DNA of 7,438 nucleotides. Source: Geosiphon pyriformis uo1 (lineage: Eukaryota; Fungi; Glomeromycota). A model generated the notes under the pieces. That model worked only from the letters and a program-made list of their open reading frames with translations, did not search any database and was not told the origin of the DNA. The position numbers were made by a program, and so were the translations under genes. Location of the stretch: contig JAAOMT010000453.1 in the NCBI GenBank assembly GCA_016748015.1, positions 1 through 7,438 on the forward strand. Reading direction: 5' to 3'. Shown here in pieces: positions 1-7,438 of this stretch; positions within the stretch are counted from its first letter, which is position 1; every line of letters begins with the position of its first letter.

Positions 1-716
1 GGGGGGGGGTAGGGAAGTCCAGTTGTATCCAGTAGTAACTCAAAGTAGTAAAGATTGAATGGATTGTGGGTCTATTGGGAATCATATGGTAGTAGGGGGA
101 TGTCCAAGTAAAGGTAACCATTAGGGATAGGAGTGGATTTGTTCGTATGGGATCCTTAGGGTTGGTGTTGGTTGGTGTGTTGGGTAGGAGTCTCCAACAA
201 CATAATGCTCCTACTTATTTGTATAGGCTGCAAGTCAAAGGATCCCAGTACTTAGGATCTGGTATTGCTTATTAGGATACCAGGGATGTAGCCTTACGAG
301 TCCTCAGGAGGAGTATTAGGATTGGGTGTGTGGGGATGTATACAGCAATGCTTGGATAGGGATATCAGTACTAAAGGGGATGTCATGAGTGTGTGTCCTG
401 TCAACGAACCTTAGGGGATCCTACGATTTGGGAGCATTGGCTACTGACCCGTCTTTATCCATCCAACATGAGCTGGTATAAGACTCAAGTAGGAACTCCA
501 AATCAGACAAGTACAACCAATATGTGATCGATACCTATGGAGGCAGTTCAATACTGAGGATCAGACCATATCTTGGATCCATTTACAACCAAACTAACAC
601 TAGAGCCTCATTCAATAGCAGGGGGGGGTGGTACTGGGGATCCCAACCAAGATCCATGCACTTAGCGATAACGGTTACACTGTATATCAACTCTTTGGGT
701 AGCCAAATAAGATAAC
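1..716 (+). repeat. Terminal direct repeat, copy 1 (probable circular-contig overlap)
   Basis: 1-716 appears identical to 6723-7438. The same 63-aa ORF is at 524..715 and 7246..7437 (offset 6722). The repeat runs to both window edges and starts inside a G run. Confidence 0.95.
55..466 (+). repeat. Imperfect inverted repeat / terminal stem-loop centred at ~260, rich in G-T(U) pairs
   Basis: AGGCTGCA 225-232 / TGTAGCCT 287-294; TAATGCTCCT 203-212 / AGGAGTATTA 309-318; TCTCCA 191-196 / TGGGGA 331-336; GATAGGA 126-132 / TCCTGTC 396-402; TTGAATGGAT 55-64 / ATCCATCCAA 457-466. Coordinate sums are 519-528. Confidence 0.75.
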
Positions 717-3493
717 TGATAGGATACTAACAAAAAGATCTCGATCAGGACCTTAGTATAGGGGGGAATCCCCATATCCCTAGTTATAAACCGTACTCTC
801 GCAAGCTTGTATCCATCTATTAGTATGTGTTGCATGGGTTGTATGGGATCCATCCTCCATAAATATGAGGAGCTCCAGATAAAACTGAGGCTGTGCTTTT
901 AGGCTCGAGGGCTACCAATAGGGCTCTATAGGAATTTGGACTTGTACCCACCAATGCTTGTATGGCTGCATAAGTACTAGTGTATATGCTGCCCTGGGGG
1001 GGGGCTAGAGATGTAGAGAACCCATAAGGACCCATACTCGTCATGTCAGCTTGCAGGTAGATAGGGGGGTAAGGATACCAACAAGTAGATCAAAAAGCGC
1101 ACTACATCTCGGGTTTATCTGACCAACCAAATACCAGTACAACAAGTCAACACAGGCTTTGGGGACCACTTGGGTACCATATAACCACCATACCCTAATT
1201 CCCTTACAACACAAGGGACCCAATATGCCAGATCAATAAGGACCCATGACAACCAAACTACTATTTCTTACCCATCTTACAGGGTAGTCTTAAGGGGTCC
1301 CTACGATACCGAGCTATTAATTTACATACCTAGGGATTTCATGACCCAACTCCTACCATTGTATTGGTAAGTATGGTACCAATCCTAATTACCATACCAA
1401 ACGGTACTTAGGGGGATCTGGTAAAGTATGAGTAATCGGGGGGTATCATTGGTATCAGGCACGTCTAAAAATCAAGCACACACCTACAGGATTGATGACT
1501 ACCATCCCTCTCTATCAGGGATCCCATACTATTGATTCACAACCCCTGTTGAGGGGATGTACGTATGTAATACAAGGAATCGTTAGGGATCTTAATGGAG
1601 GACCTACCAATACATAGGACTCAAAGACCACCATGGCCCCCAACAGAAGTGTGTGGTATCAGGATAGTAGGATGAGGTCCTATTGGTAGAGTAGCCAAGG
1701 ATGGTTCCTTAACAACCCCATACAACCCCAACACCCACATGAATCATAAGTACCCAACCGTTATCCCCTTCTCTATCCAGTGAGGCCTCAAATATGGTGA
1801 CCAGTCTACATACCAATCCAAATAGACTGGGACCTATTGGTAGTACCACTCAACAGGCTTCTATAACCTAATTGCTGCCAAAAGCCCGCAGTTTGTAGGG
1901 TCCTAACCGAGATCAAGTACACAAACCAAGAAGGGTATAAGGGACCAAGGAAGTAAGTAGCCAAAGCCTAAAGAGGAGCATTGTAATTAGCGTGATTGAT
2001 CACAAGGAGTTTAACATCAGTAATTATAGTAAGCCCCTTATATATCAAGCAATTTCCAGTAACCCAAGGCAGGTATGGATCTAAGGCTAAAGCTGTCCCA
2101 ATAAATGGTTATGGTTGTCTATCTCGCTCCCCAAACAACCCAGTGGGAAGCTGGGTACCATTTGGATCCCAACTCCAATATTAGACAAGACCAATCATAC
2201 CCAATATGAGTATTTGTATTTGGTAGTCCATACTAAAGAGTACCGGATGCAACAAAGACTCCCCGACATTTAGCCATACCACCCAATCCAGAAACCAAAC
2301 CAAACAACCATCATCCCAATAGTACAATCATATTACCTCATGGGGAGGTATGCCAACGGTATGGGAGCCAATAAAGTGAAGCCCCTTTATAACATACACC
2401 CTTTAAAACAACAGTCCGAACAATCCTGCCTCTATCCTTAAGGCGCCTTTCATGGGTAAGCCTCCAAATCCTATCCAAATCATCCATATACTCCCAAAAA
2501 GGGAACTGTCTAACTACTAGGACTACTACTTGTATTCATCATACCAAATACAAAGCAAAACCTCTTGCCAAATAGTAGTATTTAGGACCATATCTCAGCT
2601 GATCCAATAGGGTGGTAAAGATGGGTAGCAATTGGTCAGACAAAGACCTAATAAACCGTACATACTAGGGATTGGTGTCAAATTGATAGGGCCCCTCAAG
2701 ATACCCCTTGCTGTGGACCATCATGACCAAGTGGCCTCATTGTTATTTTGTAGCTTACTCATACTAGGATCCCCCAAATGGTGAACTGTAGGGCTCTTGG
2801 TAAGATAGGGAGGGATCAGTACCAAACCAAGGAAGCCTTATACCAAGTCTATTACTAATGCGGTAAGTAAGTAGTCCCTCAGGACCCTAATCCAATAAGC
2901 TCTAGAAGCCTGGGGCCATCATATTGGGTAATGGTTCCTATGAGCTCTATTTTCTGGCTATAAGCCCTCCGTACTCATATATCCAAAGCTGATATGTACC
3001 TACCAACAATGCAAAATACACAGGAGATTGGGAGGGAACAGGATTTATACTCGCACTTTGATATAGCTCTAGAAAGTCAAGTCCTTCCCAGAGGGGGACC
3101 TCTAGTAAAGGGCAATACCAGATATGTCAGATACCTAGAAAATGGACAATCAATGTCCCAATCAAACAAACTGGTTTAAACGGGATCCAAAACTTCAACA
3201 AACAAAACAACCAAACAATGCCAAATAGTGATACCACCGTCATCCTTACTTAGATTGATAGCCTCCAATCAATGTACCATAAGTACTGGCCCCAAAAGCC
3301 CCCTTTCCCTACTTCCAAAGATCATGAATCTCGTCTATTTTGTATGGGTGTCCACTGTAGACAAAAAGTAAAGAAACCCAGTGGGGGTCTAGGGGGGGGG
3401 TAACATACCCATTGGTCCCCACAAACCCTGGGTCCTCTAACCAATACCTAAATACCCATTGATTGGTACTCACTACCAACTACCCCTAGTACT

Positions 3494-3723
3494 TTGGGGA
3501 CTCATGTACTTAGTTTGGGGGATGATGAGGACTCTTATTAGAGTACCAGGATTCTTAGTCAGGGGGGGTGGGTAAGTGATGTGGGACTCCGATCTGTCTC
3601 AGAAGGGTGGTTAAAAACCAGACACGTCCCCTCCCCATCAATACTCCCCCCCCAATCACCAAACAAGTCCCCTAGACTTTAGTCATGACCATCATGGACG
3701 ACTTCCCCTACCCAAGTCCCCAA
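3494..3723. repeat. Imperfect inverted repeat / terminal stem-loop centred at ~3608
   Basis: TTGGGGACT 3494-3502 / AGTCCCCAA 3715-3723, ATGATG 3522-3527 / CATCAT 3690-3695 and TGATG 3577-3581 / CATCA 3636-3640 all share coordinate sum 7217. G7 3562-3568 faces C8 3646-3653, and TGTCT 3595-3599 faces AGACA 3620-3624. Confidence 0.8.
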
Positions 3724-4568
3724 TCCAGGTTACTCCCCTAGACTTACTTTAACCTGCCTATCCCTAAAGATCCTTACAAAAGGGTAAACCAAAAACCACT
3801 ACTACCAATCCAACTACTGCTGTATACCAACCCTTAATACCCAAGTCTTGTACTTACTTCCCAACTGTGTCATATGGATTAAGGTCGTAAAGTATGGGGG
3901 TGTCCTCAAATGGGGATAGTAATATGGTAAGGCTTCTTGTACTCCTGTACCATCCCTACTTATCTACTATTGGGACCCTCCAAGTCCACCATAATACTTG
4001 TGGGGTAAGAGTACCAAATGGATCCAATACATAGATCCAGTCAGGAGTATTAACACAGAGAGCCTTAAGCTATCAAGGGTCGAGATCCTACAGTTGTGGT
4101 CCTATGTAGTAGTTTCTGTAGAGTCCTTTACAAACCAAAGGCCTAAAGCAGTAGATCCCTGTATTTGCAAGTAATACTACTACCAATACTCCCCAGCTTA
4201 CTTGTAGATTAGGTACTTGTGGCTCTCAGTAGTTGGTAGCTTAATGCTCCTATTTGCGTCCTATAAGGTATCCATTGGGAGTATATGAGTCCTGCGGTAC
4301 GTCCTCAGTATCCAGTAAGCTCCAGTTTTAGCCATGTCCCTCTACCCATTCAGTTTGGATCCAAGTCCATAGTGGGCTCTAGACGGCGGGTTGTTAGGTA
4401 GAGGCTACTTGCACATACCAGCTATAAGAACCTACTTTCTACTGGTAGCCAAAAAGGACTCTCCCAAATAACTCCCACCAAACATCAACAACTGGGACCG
4501 TATATACTATCTCCTATAACTTACCATATAGGTACAAAGGGATCTCAATGATATGATGCCCTCTCCAA

Positions 4569-4685
4569 AGGCTTATCACTTCCCATACCTAAAAACAGGG
4601 GCTCATAACAACCCAGGCATATCACTATATTTGGGTAACAGGGCTCATAATACTTTAGATCCCAGTCTCCCCTACAGGGGGCTCA
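4569..4685 (+). repeat. Degenerate short tandem duplication (~45-nt unit)
   Basis: AGGCTTATCACT 4569-4580 ~ AGGCATATCACT 4615-4626; AACAGGGGCTCATAA 4594-4608 ~ AACAGGGCTCATAA 4637-4650 ~ ACAGGGGGCTCA 4674-4685. Confidence 0.6.
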
Positions 4686-6277
4686 AGCAGTAATACTGAT
4701 CCCTACATGGTTGATCCCCCCCGGGATCCATGGGTATCAAATCTGTCACATCCACACAACTGTATTTGTCCGTCATCAAACATCTCCATCCATCCCCACC
4801 AGTTACTATGGGTCCTTGTCAACCCCTATACCTCCACAGGGGGGGGGGAGCTCTCAAAACCAATGACTCTATACCAAGTACACAACCACAAATCCCACCA
4901 ACGATTTCTTATGTATACAACCCAGGATCCAACACACAACCCATTTGACTCATCCATATACCACCACCAATATCCCAATCAACAAACACAAAATGGTAGT
5001 CTCTCCTATACCCAAATCCCCTTTCACATGTGTACAGTAGGTACAGAGTATCTAGTCCCAAAGCTTACCAATACCCACCCTTCATTGAACACCCTTATAA
5101 ATAGCACAGTTAGCAGGTAAAACTCTTTATACTCATTCAGGACCCTAAAAATAGGCCAAAGAGGACGATCTTCAAACCTGGTTTTACTTGGGATGCCTCT
5201 ATAGTAGGGGGGGCTGGGGGAGGACCCTCTTGAGTTGGTGGTAGCCTATCTCTAAAGGTAAAACATCCTCAAAAATAGGCAGCCATTATGATGGCTTAAT
5301 AGGTACCTACAATAGGGGGGGGCTACTAAGCTTACTGTACAAGTTGGCCTATTACTTCTTCTATCATGGGACCCATATAGGTAGTTAGGACTGCAACAAA
5401 GCCACCTCCAAAACATATATGCCTTATGAGCAACTACTCACAACAAAAGGGGATACAAAGGGACTAACAACCAAGGGTTACAAGTACTTACCACAACACT
5501 ATTGCTTAAAGAAAATAGGCCCAGTACTTAGCCTCCCATGTACTTGTGTGATAGGCTAAGCTCCAAAGGGCTGGGGGGGGGGTAACAACTCCCATCATCC
5601 ATCCAAAGCCAAATAAGTCAAGCCTGATACCATAAATACTGACCCACAATAACAACCAAGGATCAAACCCAGGATCATGAAAAACAGGCTACCCACCAAA
5701 TAGTAACCAACAAAGAACCCAAATCAAGGGCCATCCACCGTTCCATACTTACAAGTGAAGTCTCCTTGTGTAATACTGGCTCCAATAAGTCCCCAACCAA
5801 GCAAAGATCTTGTTATTGGGGGGGTAAGTTACAAATTCAACAAACAAAAACAAACCCCAAACAACCATGTACCAACCAGATCTACAAACCAGTCTTAGGA
5901 GCTAAAGTAGCCATAGATTTCGTAAACACCCAAATCAACTCTTATTTAGATACCCAATAAGACTAGGATCCAATAACTGGCTAAGCCTTGTGCTCTTATA
6001 AATCAACATATACAACCACATCAACTATCTATGAGTACCAAATCACAACCAAATCAAGCAGGGCTGGGTGTTGTGGCTGCAAAGGGGCTTGGGGGGGGGG
6101 CGATGGTACTTCCCATGACTTGGGTACCCAAATCATAGTATCCATCTGACTACTTGCTTTAGTATCCAATTGCGTGGGTATATATAGGCTTGGGGGATCC
6201 TTACTGAAAACAAAGGGCTCTCTGGGGATAAGCTTTATGAGCAAGCACCATTCAGGAAGCTCCATGACCCCCTGGTA

Positions 6278-6360
6278 GGAAAGGTGACTGAATGGTAAAG
6301 TGGTAGCCCGCTAAGCCTCTGGATCACGTATCCTTGGGAGTTCAAGTCTCCCCCTTTCCA
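6278..6360 (+). tRNA. trnS(gct): Class II tRNA-Ser(GCT)-like gene of bacterial/organellar type with a defective anticodon arm (pseudo-tRNA, edited tRNA or tRNA-like structure)
   Basis: Acceptor stem GGAAAGG 6278-6284 / CCTTTCC 6353-6359 (7/7); T8-G9; D stem ACT 6287-6289 / AGT 6299-6301 with G13-A22 and GG in the loop; anticodon loop CC-GCT-AA 6308-6314; variable arm GGAT 6321-6324 / ATCC 6330-6333; T stem GGGAG 6336-6340 / CTCCC 6348-6352 (5/5) with loop TTCAAGT; discriminator A6360; CCA not encoded (followed by CAACCA). The anticodon stem GTAGC/GCCTC has T-T and A-C mismatches, and position 33 is C. Confidence 0.85.
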
Positions 6361-6704
6361 CAACCAAGGCTTCATGGGGATCGGTACCCAAACTGATAGA
6401 GCCAGATCAAAGTAGTCGACAATGATCCGCCTGGGGGGCTTTTATATGGGGCCTGAGGACTCATCCCTTTGCTTTGGGACCAACTAAAGCTGGGTAAGCC
6501 AATAAAAGCGGTATGTATAGCAAGACCACAACCAAAAAGGGGTACTTTACTCCTGCTATCGTCAACATCCCTGTCATGAACGTCTCCAAATATTGGTGGG
6601 TAACAGTAGTTATAAAAACCAATTAGAGATTACAAACATACCAACAACCAACTCCCAATGGATTGTAGCCAAGTCGTAGTAGTTGTCCAATTAGGATCAC
6701 CAAT

Positions 6705-6736
6705 GGGTGGTGGGGTGGGGTGGGGGGGGGGTAGGG
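6705..6736 (+). other. G-quadruplex-forming motif at the unit junction
   Basis: GGGTGGTGGGGTGGGGTGGGGGGGGGGTAGGG has at least four G-runs of 3 or more with short loops. Confidence 0.75.
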
Positions 6737-7438
6737 AAGTCCAGTTGTATCCAGTAGTAACTCAAAGTAGTAAAGATTGAATGGATTGTGGGTCTATTGG
6801 GAATCATATGGTAGTAGGGGGATGTCCAAGTAAAGGTAACCATTAGGGATAGGAGTGGATTTGTTCGTATGGGATCCTTAGGGTTGGTGTTGGTTGGTGT
6901 GTTGGGTAGGAGTCTCCAACAACATAATGCTCCTACTTATTTGTATAGGCTGCAAGTCAAAGGATCCCAGTACTTAGGATCTGGTATTGCTTATTAGGAT
7001 ACCAGGGATGTAGCCTTACGAGTCCTCAGGAGGAGTATTAGGATTGGGTGTGTGGGGATGTATACAGCAATGCTTGGATAGGGATATCAGTACTAAAGGG
7101 GATGTCATGAGTGTGTGTCCTGTCAACGAACCTTAGGGGATCCTACGATTTGGGAGCATTGGCTACTGACCCGTCTTTATCCATCCAACATGAGCTGGTA
7201 TAAGACTCAAGTAGGAACTCCAAATCAGACAAGTACAACCAATATGTGATCGATACCTATGGAGGCAGTTCAATACTGAGGATCAGACCATATCTTGGAT
7301 CCATTTACAACCAAACTAACACTAGAGCCTCATTCAATAGCAGGGGGGGGTGGTACTGGGGATCCCAACCAAGATCCATGCACTTAGCGATAACGGTTAC
7401 ACTGTATATCAACTCTTTGGGTAGCCAAATAAGATAAC
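6723..7438 (+). repeat. Terminal direct repeat, copy 2; defines a unit length of 6722 nt
   Basis: GGGGGGGGGTAGGGAAGTCC...AGCCAAATAAGATAAC matches 1-716 on visual comparison. Confidence 0.95.

What the first reader, a model, noticed from the sequence alone, without database searches (positions are those of the whole stretch)
6278..6360. Lone tRNA-Ser-like structure with a perfect acceptor/T half but broken anticodon arm: possible processing or replication signal
Seen: the acceptor stem (7/7), T arm (5/5, TTCAAGT loop), D arm and variable arm are intact. The anticodon stem has two mismatches (T6304-T6318, A6305-C6317), the near-invariant U33 is C (6309), and the discriminator is A rather than the usual Ser G73. 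Established: RNase P, RNase Z and CCA-adding enzyme read mainly the acceptor stem/T arm, not the anticodon arm, and tRNA-like structures act as replication or processing signals in tymoviruses and the Mauriceville/Varkud mitochondrial retroplasmids. Inference: selection seems to keep the processing-relevant half. A captured tRNA could let host RNase P/Z cut multimeric transcripts once per unit in place of a ribozyme. Alternatively, C-to-U editing at 6309 and 6317 would repair two of the three anticodon-arm defects.
Basis: partly seen in the sequence, partly recalled or inferred. Interest (0 to 1): 0.8.

Follow-up and report, generated by a model that had tools for sequence, protein, structure and literature searches.

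The report
Lone serine tRNA on gene-less minicircle
A real but damaged-looking serine tRNA gene is the only recognisable gene on a 6.7-kb circle that is likely one chromosome of a many-circle organelle genome, and the tRNA is more likely an ordinary translation tRNA (possibly repaired by RNA editing) than a ribozyme substitute.

Summary
In detail: tRNA-Ser(GCU) at 6278-6360 (Rfam 47.3 bits), with two internal anticodon-stem mismatches, C33 and A73. The RNA-replicon reading is not supported. The window is a 6,722-bp circle with no protein family, no ribozyme and no RNA-folding signal. Its one holder run is typed as DNA (a guess by the tool). There, other contigs share a ~100-bp core at 5133-5231, and 5.4-10.3-kb contigs of similar depth share G-runs. 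This points to a multi-circle, probably organellar, genome whose shared signal lies about 1 kb from the tRNA. The tRNA keeps all 19 pairs outside the anticodon stem, every tertiary contact checked except U33, and most serine identity elements; no second copy was seen in the run. C33 also occurs in five distinct viral-contig tRNA-Ser(GCU) genes with sound stems. Clustering of defects in one arm is marginal (P 0.04-0.18). Modelled C-to-U at 6309 and 6317 cuts the misfolding gap from 8.7 to 2.7 kcal/mol (control mean 2.6). Best reading: a tRNA-only minichromosome whose tRNA still serves translation, edited or tolerated (0.5). Rivals: recent pseudogene (0.3), t-element or replication signal (0.13), RNA replicon (0.03). 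Lineage and donor unidentified.

The parts
6278..6360 (+). tRNA-Ser(GCU) gene, class II (long variable arm), 83 nt including discriminator A73; no encoded CCA
   Evidence: ARAGORN, Rfam RF00005 47.3 bits, cloverleaf drawing, tertiary positions
6303..6319 (+). Anticodon arm: pairs 27-43, 30-40 and 31-39 intact; 28.42 (T.T) and 29.41 (A.C) mismatched; C32, C33, anticodon GCT at 6310-6312, A37
   Evidence: 0 of 115 control tRNA-Ser(GCT) have two internal mismatches
1..6722 (.). Unit circle of 6,722 bp with no protein gene or other RNA family; CpG observed/expected 0.20; 15 G-runs (6 or more) on + against 2 on -; GGATCC 16 times against 2.3 expected
   Evidence: exact 716-nt terminal repeat; joint 6722->1 in a 6,722-nt contig of run X1
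5133..5231 (.). Short core shared with other contigs of the same run (imperfect hairpins followed by G-runs); candidate origin or promoter of the circle family (function inferred)
   Evidence: a 5,853-nt contig (depth 94.5) begins here, five 36-66-nt unitigs with variants overlap it, summed depth 582.5 at 5206, and the circle's own contig starts at 5186 and ends at 5184; DNA fold
6705..6736 (+). G-rich tract with a G-quadruplex-type motif; 18-32-nt matches in 5,428-nt and 7,630-nt contigs of the same run
6723..7438 (.). Assembly overlap: exact copy of 1-716, not a second biological element

Best explanation
The tRNA-Ser(GCU) is the only recognisable gene on a 6,722-bp circle that is likely one minichromosome of a multipartite, probably mitochondrial, DNA genome, and it likely still supplies serine for AGY codons in organelle translation. 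Shown: the tRNA, its three anticodon-arm defects, the circle, the absence of other genes, and sibling contigs sharing a short core. Inferred: the circle replicates from the shared core at 5133-5231 using host enzymes; it is kept because it carries the only copy of this tRNA; the transcript is cut out by RNase P and RNase Z like any tRNA, gets CCA and is serylated through its acceptor stem and variable arm. The anticodon arm would work either after C-to-U editing at 6309 (U33) and 6317 (A29-U41), leaving one U.U pair, or with the internal loop tolerated; I weigh these two about equally.
For: Genome context: sibling contigs of 5,853, 10,285, 5,428 and 7,630 nt at depth 94.5-181.5 against 105.5 for the circle; shared variant-bearing core at which the circle's contig breaks. 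No Pfam family above its cut-off in six frames read through stops; one Rfam hit only; no RNA-folding excess, mean z +0.29 and +0.28 over 57 windows per strand. Selection on the tRNA: at most 61 of 83 columns identical to any of 115 control tRNA-Ser(GCT), yet all 19 pairs outside the anticodon stem hold, with U8, A14, G18, G19, G26.U44, G53-C61, U54, U55, C56, A58 and purine 37 kept and the 15:48 pair changed on both sides to A:U (G:C in 37 of 38 controls). Bacterial serine identity elements C72, G2-C71, R4-Y69, C11-G24, G30-C40 and the long variable arm are present, and serylation does not depend on the anticodon (PMC9976931 passages). No second contig at 80% likeness or more lies over the tRNA in run X1. 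C33 occurs in 8 of 9 viral loci matching a C32-C33 pattern, 5 distinct tRNA-Ser(GCU), 3 with perfect stems and 2 with one terminal mismatch. Modelled edits bring the cloverleaf-versus-best-fold gap from 8.7 to 2.7 kcal/mol; controls average 2.6 (n=38). Precedents: tRNA-only mitochondrial minichromosomes in lice (PMC3514963); C-to-U repair of stems and conserved unpaired U in 11 of 13 Isoetes mitochondrial tRNAs (PMC2731911); working tRNAs-Pyl with small loops in the anticodon stem (PMC7609411).
Against: No organelle marker gene was seen on any sibling, and the siblings were not shown to be circular; only their lengths, depths and short overlaps are known, and the G-run matches (18-32 nt) are low-complexity. 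'DNA' for run X1 is the tool's guess, and X1 may be the source of the window. Two internal anticodon-stem mismatches occur in 0 of 115 controls (these were ARAGORN calls, which favours sound stems, and are all bacterial or viral, not organellar). The T.T mismatch cannot be repaired by C-to-U editing. A73 is rare in controls (2 of 44; 1 of 49). The unedited transcript is predicted to misfold, with the D and anticodon arms pairing with each other. C41 may be ancestral rather than an editing site: G29-C41 occurs in 21 of 115 controls and C28-G42 in 82 of 115, so T28 and A29 could be CpG decay in a CpG-poor circle. Contigs drop rare variants, so a single copy is not proven.
Confidence: 0.5

Rival explanations
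1. Recently relaxed pseudogene: the tRNA was functional on this minichromosome, has been replaced by an imported or differently encoded tRNA-Ser, and has begun to decay (positions 28, 29, 33, 42, 73) under the circle's mutation pressure.
For: Four defects, one not repairable by C-to-U; two internal mismatches in 0 of 115 controls; predicted misfold 8.7 kcal/mol below the cloverleaf, with only 1 of 38 controls at 7.3 or more; T28 and A29 fit CpG decay; clustering in one arm not significant once A73 is counted (P 0.145).
Against: 19 of 19 pairs outside the anticodon stem and all but one tertiary invariant are intact in a circle where nothing else keeps recognisable homology; no intact second copy seen in the run.
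Confidence: 0.3
2. t-element or replication signal on a DNA minichromosome: a former tRNA kept as an RNase P/Z cut site, or as a primer or origin-associated fold, no longer used for decoding. Being a serine tRNA it could even be charged without a working anticodon arm.
For: Plant mitochondrial t-elements are cut, CCA-tailed and modified but not charged (PMC11658184 passages; PMC3790967 passages). Three defects in one arm: P 0.043. The cumulative GC-skew minimum (6055) lies about 220 nt upstream of the tRNA, and the skew range exceeds block shuffles (P 0.0015).
Against: There is no neighbouring gene whose end it could define. Sibling contigs share the 5133-5231 core and G-runs, not the tRNA, so a family-wide signal is not the tRNA. 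Anticodon, A37, G30-C40 and the variable arm are kept. The predicted unedited fold ties up G18-G19, which would disturb the elbow (thermodynamic model only).
Confidence: 0.13
3. One reading: a circular RNA replicon (viroid-like or retroplasmid-like) that uses a captured tRNA to have multimers cut once per unit.
For: One tRNA per unit circle and no ribozyme among 4,227 Rfam families.
Against: No polymerase or reverse transcriptase; no folding excess, 59.5% of bases paired in the whole-circle fold and mean local z about +0.3; holder run typed DNA (guessed); a family of larger sibling contigs with a shared core.
Confidence: 0.03
4. Other compartment: a dinoflagellate-type plastid 'empty' minicircle, or a non-organellar extrachromosomal circle family, carrying a tRNA taken from a bacterium or phage.
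For: Peridinin plastid minicircles include 'empty' circles with a shared core and a single tRNA (PMC1679814 passages). The short D loop and the T loop of this tRNA also occur in viral-contig tRNAs (L068, L197), so they do not prove a mitochondrial origin.
Against: The minicircle tRNAs reported there are fMet, Pro and Trp only; no bacterial or viral tRNA is closer than 61 of 83 columns; no plasmid or phage match.
Confidence: 0.04

Closest known systems
tRNA-only mitochondrial minichromosomes of human lice (PMC3514963, passages)
   Same: Circular chromosome whose only gene is a tRNA (65-bp coding region in the trnM circle); conserved motifs shared among circles
   Different: Louse circles are 1.5-3 kb; in the pubic louse the non-coding regions are about 1 kb and 91-99% alike. 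Bilaterian trnS(GCU) lacks the D arm (PMC5633667), whereas this one has D and variable arms, so the host is not a bilaterian
Stylonematophyceae red-algal mitochondrial minicircles (PMC10250338, passages)
   Same: Multipartite circular mitogenome, raised GC in non-coding DNA, few tRNAs
Peridinin dinoflagellate plastid minicircles, including 'empty' circles (PMC1679814 passages; PMC2665238 listing)
   Same: Shared core, gene-less circles, occasional lone tRNA, rolling-circle replication reported
   Different: Usually 2-3 kb; reported tRNAs are fMet, Pro and Trp; no plastid gene seen here
Calcaronean sponge mitochondrial chromosomes (Petrobiona: 147 extra chromosomes, some with tRNA or rRNA genes; PMC5633667 passages)
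   Same: Very many small chromosomes, some with tRNA genes only
   Different: Linear with shared ends; this one maps as a circle
Edited mitochondrial tRNAs of Isoetes engelmannii (PMC2731911 passages)
   Same: Genomic C where stems and conserved unpaired U need U
   Different: Editing is shown there by cDNA for trnP; here only modelled; one mismatch is not C/U-repairable
Plant mitochondrial t-elements (PMC11658184, PMC3790967 passages)
   Same: tRNA-derived fold with a divergent anticodon region that RNase P/Z could cut
   Different: t-elements abut mRNA or rRNA ends; this one has no neighbouring gene and keeps anticodon and serine identity elements
Fungal linear mitochondrial plasmids carrying captured tRNA genes (PMC9925561, abstract and outline only)
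   Same: A small replicon kept because it holds a tRNA the main genome lost; rare-codon tRNAs favoured
   Different: Those plasmids are linear; that they encode their own polymerases is recalled, not from a call; this circle encodes none
Mauriceville/Varkud retroplasmids and tymovirus tRNA-like structures
   Same: A tRNA-like fold on a small replicon
   Different: They encode a reverse transcriptase or RdRp and place the fold at an RNA 3' end (recalled); no such gene here

Membership tests
tRNA (RF00005), class II tRNA-Ser(GCU) | Cloverleaf scoring above the gathering threshold | tested here: met
   47.3 bits against 29; ARAGORN call
tRNA (RF00005), class II tRNA-Ser(GCU) | Tertiary invariants (U8-A14, 15:48, G18, G19, U54, U55, C56, A58, G53-C61) | tested here: met
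tRNA (RF00005), class II tRNA-Ser(GCU) | 5-bp anticodon stem and U33 | tested here: not met
   3 of 5 pairs, C33; C33 alone also in 5 distinct viral-contig tRNA-Ser(GCU)
tRNA (RF00005), class II tRNA-Ser(GCU) | Bacterial serine identity set: long variable arm, C72, G2-C71, R4-Y69, C11-G24, G30-C40, G73 | tested here: inconclusive
   all present except G73 (sequence; list from PMC9976931)
tRNA (RF00005), class II tRNA-Ser(GCU) | Processed, CCA-tailed and charged in vivo | not testable with these tools
   only contigs could be laid
Minichromosome of a multipartite organelle genome | Circular unit | tested here: met
   exact terminal repeat; joint 6722->1; assembly evidence only
Minichromosome of a multipartite organelle genome | Sibling molecules sharing a conserved non-coding core | tested here: met
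   core 5133-5231 on a 5,853-nt contig and five short variant unitigs; siblings' circularity not seen
Minichromosome of a multipartite organelle genome | Siblings carry organelle marker genes (cox1, cob, rRNA or psbA) | not testable with these tools
   Read laying gives only overlaps and 30-nt loose ends; no genome held
C-to-U-edited organellar tRNA (Isoetes type) | U read at genomic C in RNA | not testable with these tools
   modelled only
t-element | Abuts the end of an mRNA or rRNA | tested here: not met
   no protein family or rRNA on the circle; an unknown non-coding transcript is not excluded
Viroid-like or ribozyme-type circular RNA | High self-pairing and/or a ribozyme | tested here: not met
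Retroplasmid or RNA virus with tRNA-like structure | Encoded reverse transcriptase or RdRp | tested here: not met
   six-frame Pfam scan through stops; longest ORF 137 aa
Louse-type bilaterian minicircle | trnS(GCU) without D arm; long shared non-coding region | tested here: not met
   D and variable arms present; shared stretch about 100 bp

The most novel reading that the evidence does not exclude
An undescribed family of 5-10-kb DNA circles, linked only by a ~100-bp core, in which a serine tRNA has left decoding: it is still cut out and serylated through its acceptor stem and variable arm, but its anticodon arm refolds onto the D arm, and it serves as a processing or priming signal for the gene-less circle.
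Probability: 0.08. Interest if true: 0.7.

Novelty: new member of a known kind. Interest (0 to 1): 0.33.

Why it matters
The tRNA on its own is a modest find: divergent, edited or decaying tRNAs and tRNA-only minichromosomes are known. The larger lead is the genome it sits in. None of my ten completed paper searches surfaced a multi-circle organelle genome with 5-10-kb circles, a ~100-bp shared core, one-strand G-runs and CpG at 0.20; the library lacks most subscription papers, so this is not proof that it is undescribed. If the siblings carry mitochondrial genes, this is a further independent origin of minicircular mitochondrial DNA, and possibly of tRNA editing. It would also allow a direct test of whether a 6.7-kb chromosome is kept for one 83-nt gene.

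Tried and rejected
No RNA holder listed; this says nothing about expression. Runs X2 and X3 of the same sample label showed only 31-36-nt G-run matches; no conclusion drawn. No whole genome is held. BLAST of the tRNA against phages gave only partial chance hits, E about 9 in the rows shown; against plasmids 20-28-nt hits; the whole circle has no plasmid match. Pattern scans for a close relative: 0 in viral contigs; 1 in metagenome contigs, an unrelated tRNA called Arg(CCT); 45 in prokaryote genomes, 44 parsed, none closer than 61 of 83 columns. A 16-nt core motif gave 8 viral hits, all 8 with unrelated flanks. The single Pfam hit (RAP, 17.5 bits against a cut-off of 24.2, read across stops) is rejected. 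Two extra ARAGORN '-mt' calls (2112-2187 minus, 5297-5355) are rejected: simulated circles give 1.68 such calls each. A slipped pairing A29-U42 with two bulges scores worse than the 2x2 loop (-18.4 against -21.7 kcal/mol). The idea that the short D loop and the T loop mark a mitochondrial origin failed: a viral-contig tRNA has both (L197). Lineages considered and not matched on the passages read: lice, Stylonematophyceae, dinoflagellate plastids, calcareous sponges, Mycale, ferns with chlamydial tRNAs. Six look-ups in earlier findings returned nothing. One search used 80 of the 120 U33 loci; one search used all 197 loci. No supplementary files were opened; those of the minicircle papers may hold tRNA sequences that bear on the donor.

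Full report
Observation. The tRNA is real. ARAGORN calls tRNA-Ser(gct) at 6278-6361, and Rfam's tRNA model matches 6278-6360 at 47.3 bits against a gathering score of 29; it is the only hit with E up to 1 among 4,227 families. ARAGORN finds 0 tRNAs in 300 simulated circles. The acceptor (7/7), D (3 bp), variable (4 bp) and T (5/5) stems are intact. The closing CCA at 6358-6360 is positions 71-73, not an encoded tail.

How unusual the defects are. Among 115 distinct tRNA-Ser(GCT) genes that ARAGORN called in my 197 fetched bacterial and viral loci, 104 have perfect anticodon stems, 10 have only terminal mismatches, 1 has one internal mismatch and 0 have two. So the stem is abnormal by bacterial standards; no organellar controls were available. 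C33 is less damning: a pattern with C32-C33 found 9 viral loci, 8 of them tRNA-Ser(GCU), 5 distinct, with sound stems, against at least 120 loci for U33. A73 occurs in 2 of 44 bacterial and 1 of 49 viral controls. The clustering of defects in one arm is marginal: P=0.18 for the two mismatches, 0.043 for three defects and 0.145 when A73 is included. Adjacent mismatches may also be one event.

What is kept. The gene is at most 61 of 83 columns identical to any control. Yet every tertiary invariant checked except U33 is present, and the 15:48 pair is A:U where 37 of 38 controls have G:C. Of the bacterial serine identity set (PMC9976931, passages) only G73 is missing; G30-C40, inside the damaged stem, is kept. 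The same passages say serylation depends on the variable arm and not on the anticodon. This is a whole tRNA with two bad pairs, not a preserved top half.

Folding. As encoded, the best fold pairs the D-loop side with the anticodon loop, using both C33 and C41. The cloverleaf lies 8.7 kcal/mol above it; 38 controls average 2.6 and 1 of 38 reaches 7.3 or more. Modelling C-to-U at 6309 and 6317 gives 2.7, and each change alone gives 5.8 or 5.6. This fits editing, but it fits decay as well, and the model ignores tertiary contacts and modifications. Against editing as the original state: C28-G42 is the commonest pair in controls (82 of 115) and G29-C41 occurs in 21 of 115, so T28 and A29 could be CpG decay in a circle with CpG at 0.20 of expectation.

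The surroundings. The window is a 6,722-bp circle with an exact 716-nt overlap. It has no ORF over 137 aa (153 aa stop to stop in table 4), no Pfam family above cut-off in six frames read through stops, no plasmid match and no RNA-folding excess: mean z +0.29 and +0.28, with 1 and 2 of 57 windows below -2, and 59.5% of bases paired in the whole-circle fold. It is rich in one-strand G-runs (15 against 2) and GGATCC (16 against 2.3 expected). One of three listed runs holds it (0.99 of words); it is typed DNA by guess and may be the window's source.

Siblings. In that run the circle is one 6,722-nt contig at depth 105.5 with the joint 6722->1. It starts at 5186 and ends at 5184, inside a stretch (5133-5231) where a 5,853-nt contig (depth 94.5) begins and five 36-66-nt variant unitigs overlap, with summed depth 582.5 at 5206 (16 records laid in X1, the table was cut). 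Contigs of 10,285, 5,428 and 7,630 nt (depth 181.5, 102.5, 174.1) match G-rich stretches of 18-32 nt (5 records laid). Over the tRNA the depth is flat at 105.5 and no other letters are listed. I infer a family of related molecules with a short common core, and one copy of this tRNA. I did not see whether the siblings are circular or what genes they carry, and contig depth is no copy number.

Mechanism. Most likely (0.5) this is a tRNA-only minichromosome of a multipartite organelle genome, probably mitochondrial. It would replicate from the shared core by host enzymes and be kept for its tRNA, which would be processed, CCA-tailed and charged normally and decode AGY either after C-to-U editing or with the loop tolerated. 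Precedents, from passages read: louse minichromosomes with tRNA genes only (PMC3514963); Isoetes, where 11 of 13 mitochondrial tRNAs need C-to-U repair of stems and conserved U (PMC2731911); tRNAs-Pyl with loops in the anticodon stem (PMC7609411); fungal plasmids kept for a captured tRNA (PMC9925561, abstract only). Rivals: recent pseudogene (0.3); t-element or replication signal on DNA (0.13), helped by the GC-skew minimum at 6055 but hurt by the lack of a neighbouring gene and by siblings not sharing the tRNA; other compartment (0.04); RNA replicon (0.03).

Comparison and novelty. It works like known tRNA-bearing minichromosomes. It fails membership of louse-type circles (its tRNA has D and variable arms), of Stylonematophyceae circles (no long constant region; PMC10250338), of t-elements (no adjacent gene; PMC11658184) and of retroplasmids or viroid-like RNAs. 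The donor is unresolved: the D-loop and T-loop features also occur in viral-contig tRNAs, and no eukaryotic organelle collection could be searched. Ten paper searches did not surface this genome type; the library is incomplete. Verdict: observation confirmed, signal hypothesis unsupported, editing open; a new member of a known kind, interest 0.33, most of it from the unidentified multi-circle genome.

Noticed in passing
window 5133-5231: Short core shared, with variants, by other contigs of run X1; the circle's contig breaks inside it. Imperfect hairpins followed by G-runs; the best candidate for the origin or promoter of the circle family.
   Followed up: partly
run X1, contigs of 5,853, 10,285, 5,428 and 7,630 nt: Sibling contigs at depth 94.5-181.5 with similar G-rich stretches; probably other chromosomes of an unidentified multipartite genome. 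Their genes could not be read.
   Followed up: partly
L067 2950-3039 (-), L068 2991-3073 (+), L069 2954-3039 (-), L071 2952-3039 (-), L074 1385-1470 (-): Five distinct tRNA-Ser(GCU) genes in viral contigs carry C33 instead of the near-invariant U33, with sound anticodon stems and different acceptor stems, suggesting repeated origin; possibly a way to escape host anticodon nucleases (untested).
   Followed up: partly
window 1-6722: CpG observed/expected 0.20, GG 1.89, and GGATCC 16 times against 2.3 expected; cause unknown.
   Followed up: no
window 6055 and 1077: Cumulative GC skew switches at these points (block-shuffle P 0.0015); the G-rich arc between them holds the tRNA and the G-quadruplex-type tract at 6705-6736.
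   Followed up: partly
window 5980-5987 and 6310-6317: The 8-mer that begins at the anticodon occurs a second time on the circle (2 matches against 0.12 expected; one match is the query itself, so weak).
   Followed up: no
window 5572: The X1 contig has one more G in this homopolymer than the window.
   Followed up: no
L001 2238-2326 (-): A long tRNA with a serine-like acceptor and variable arm but a CCT (Arg) anticodon, next to an integrated element in a metagenome contig; may be a recoding or allo-type tRNA.
   Followed up: no
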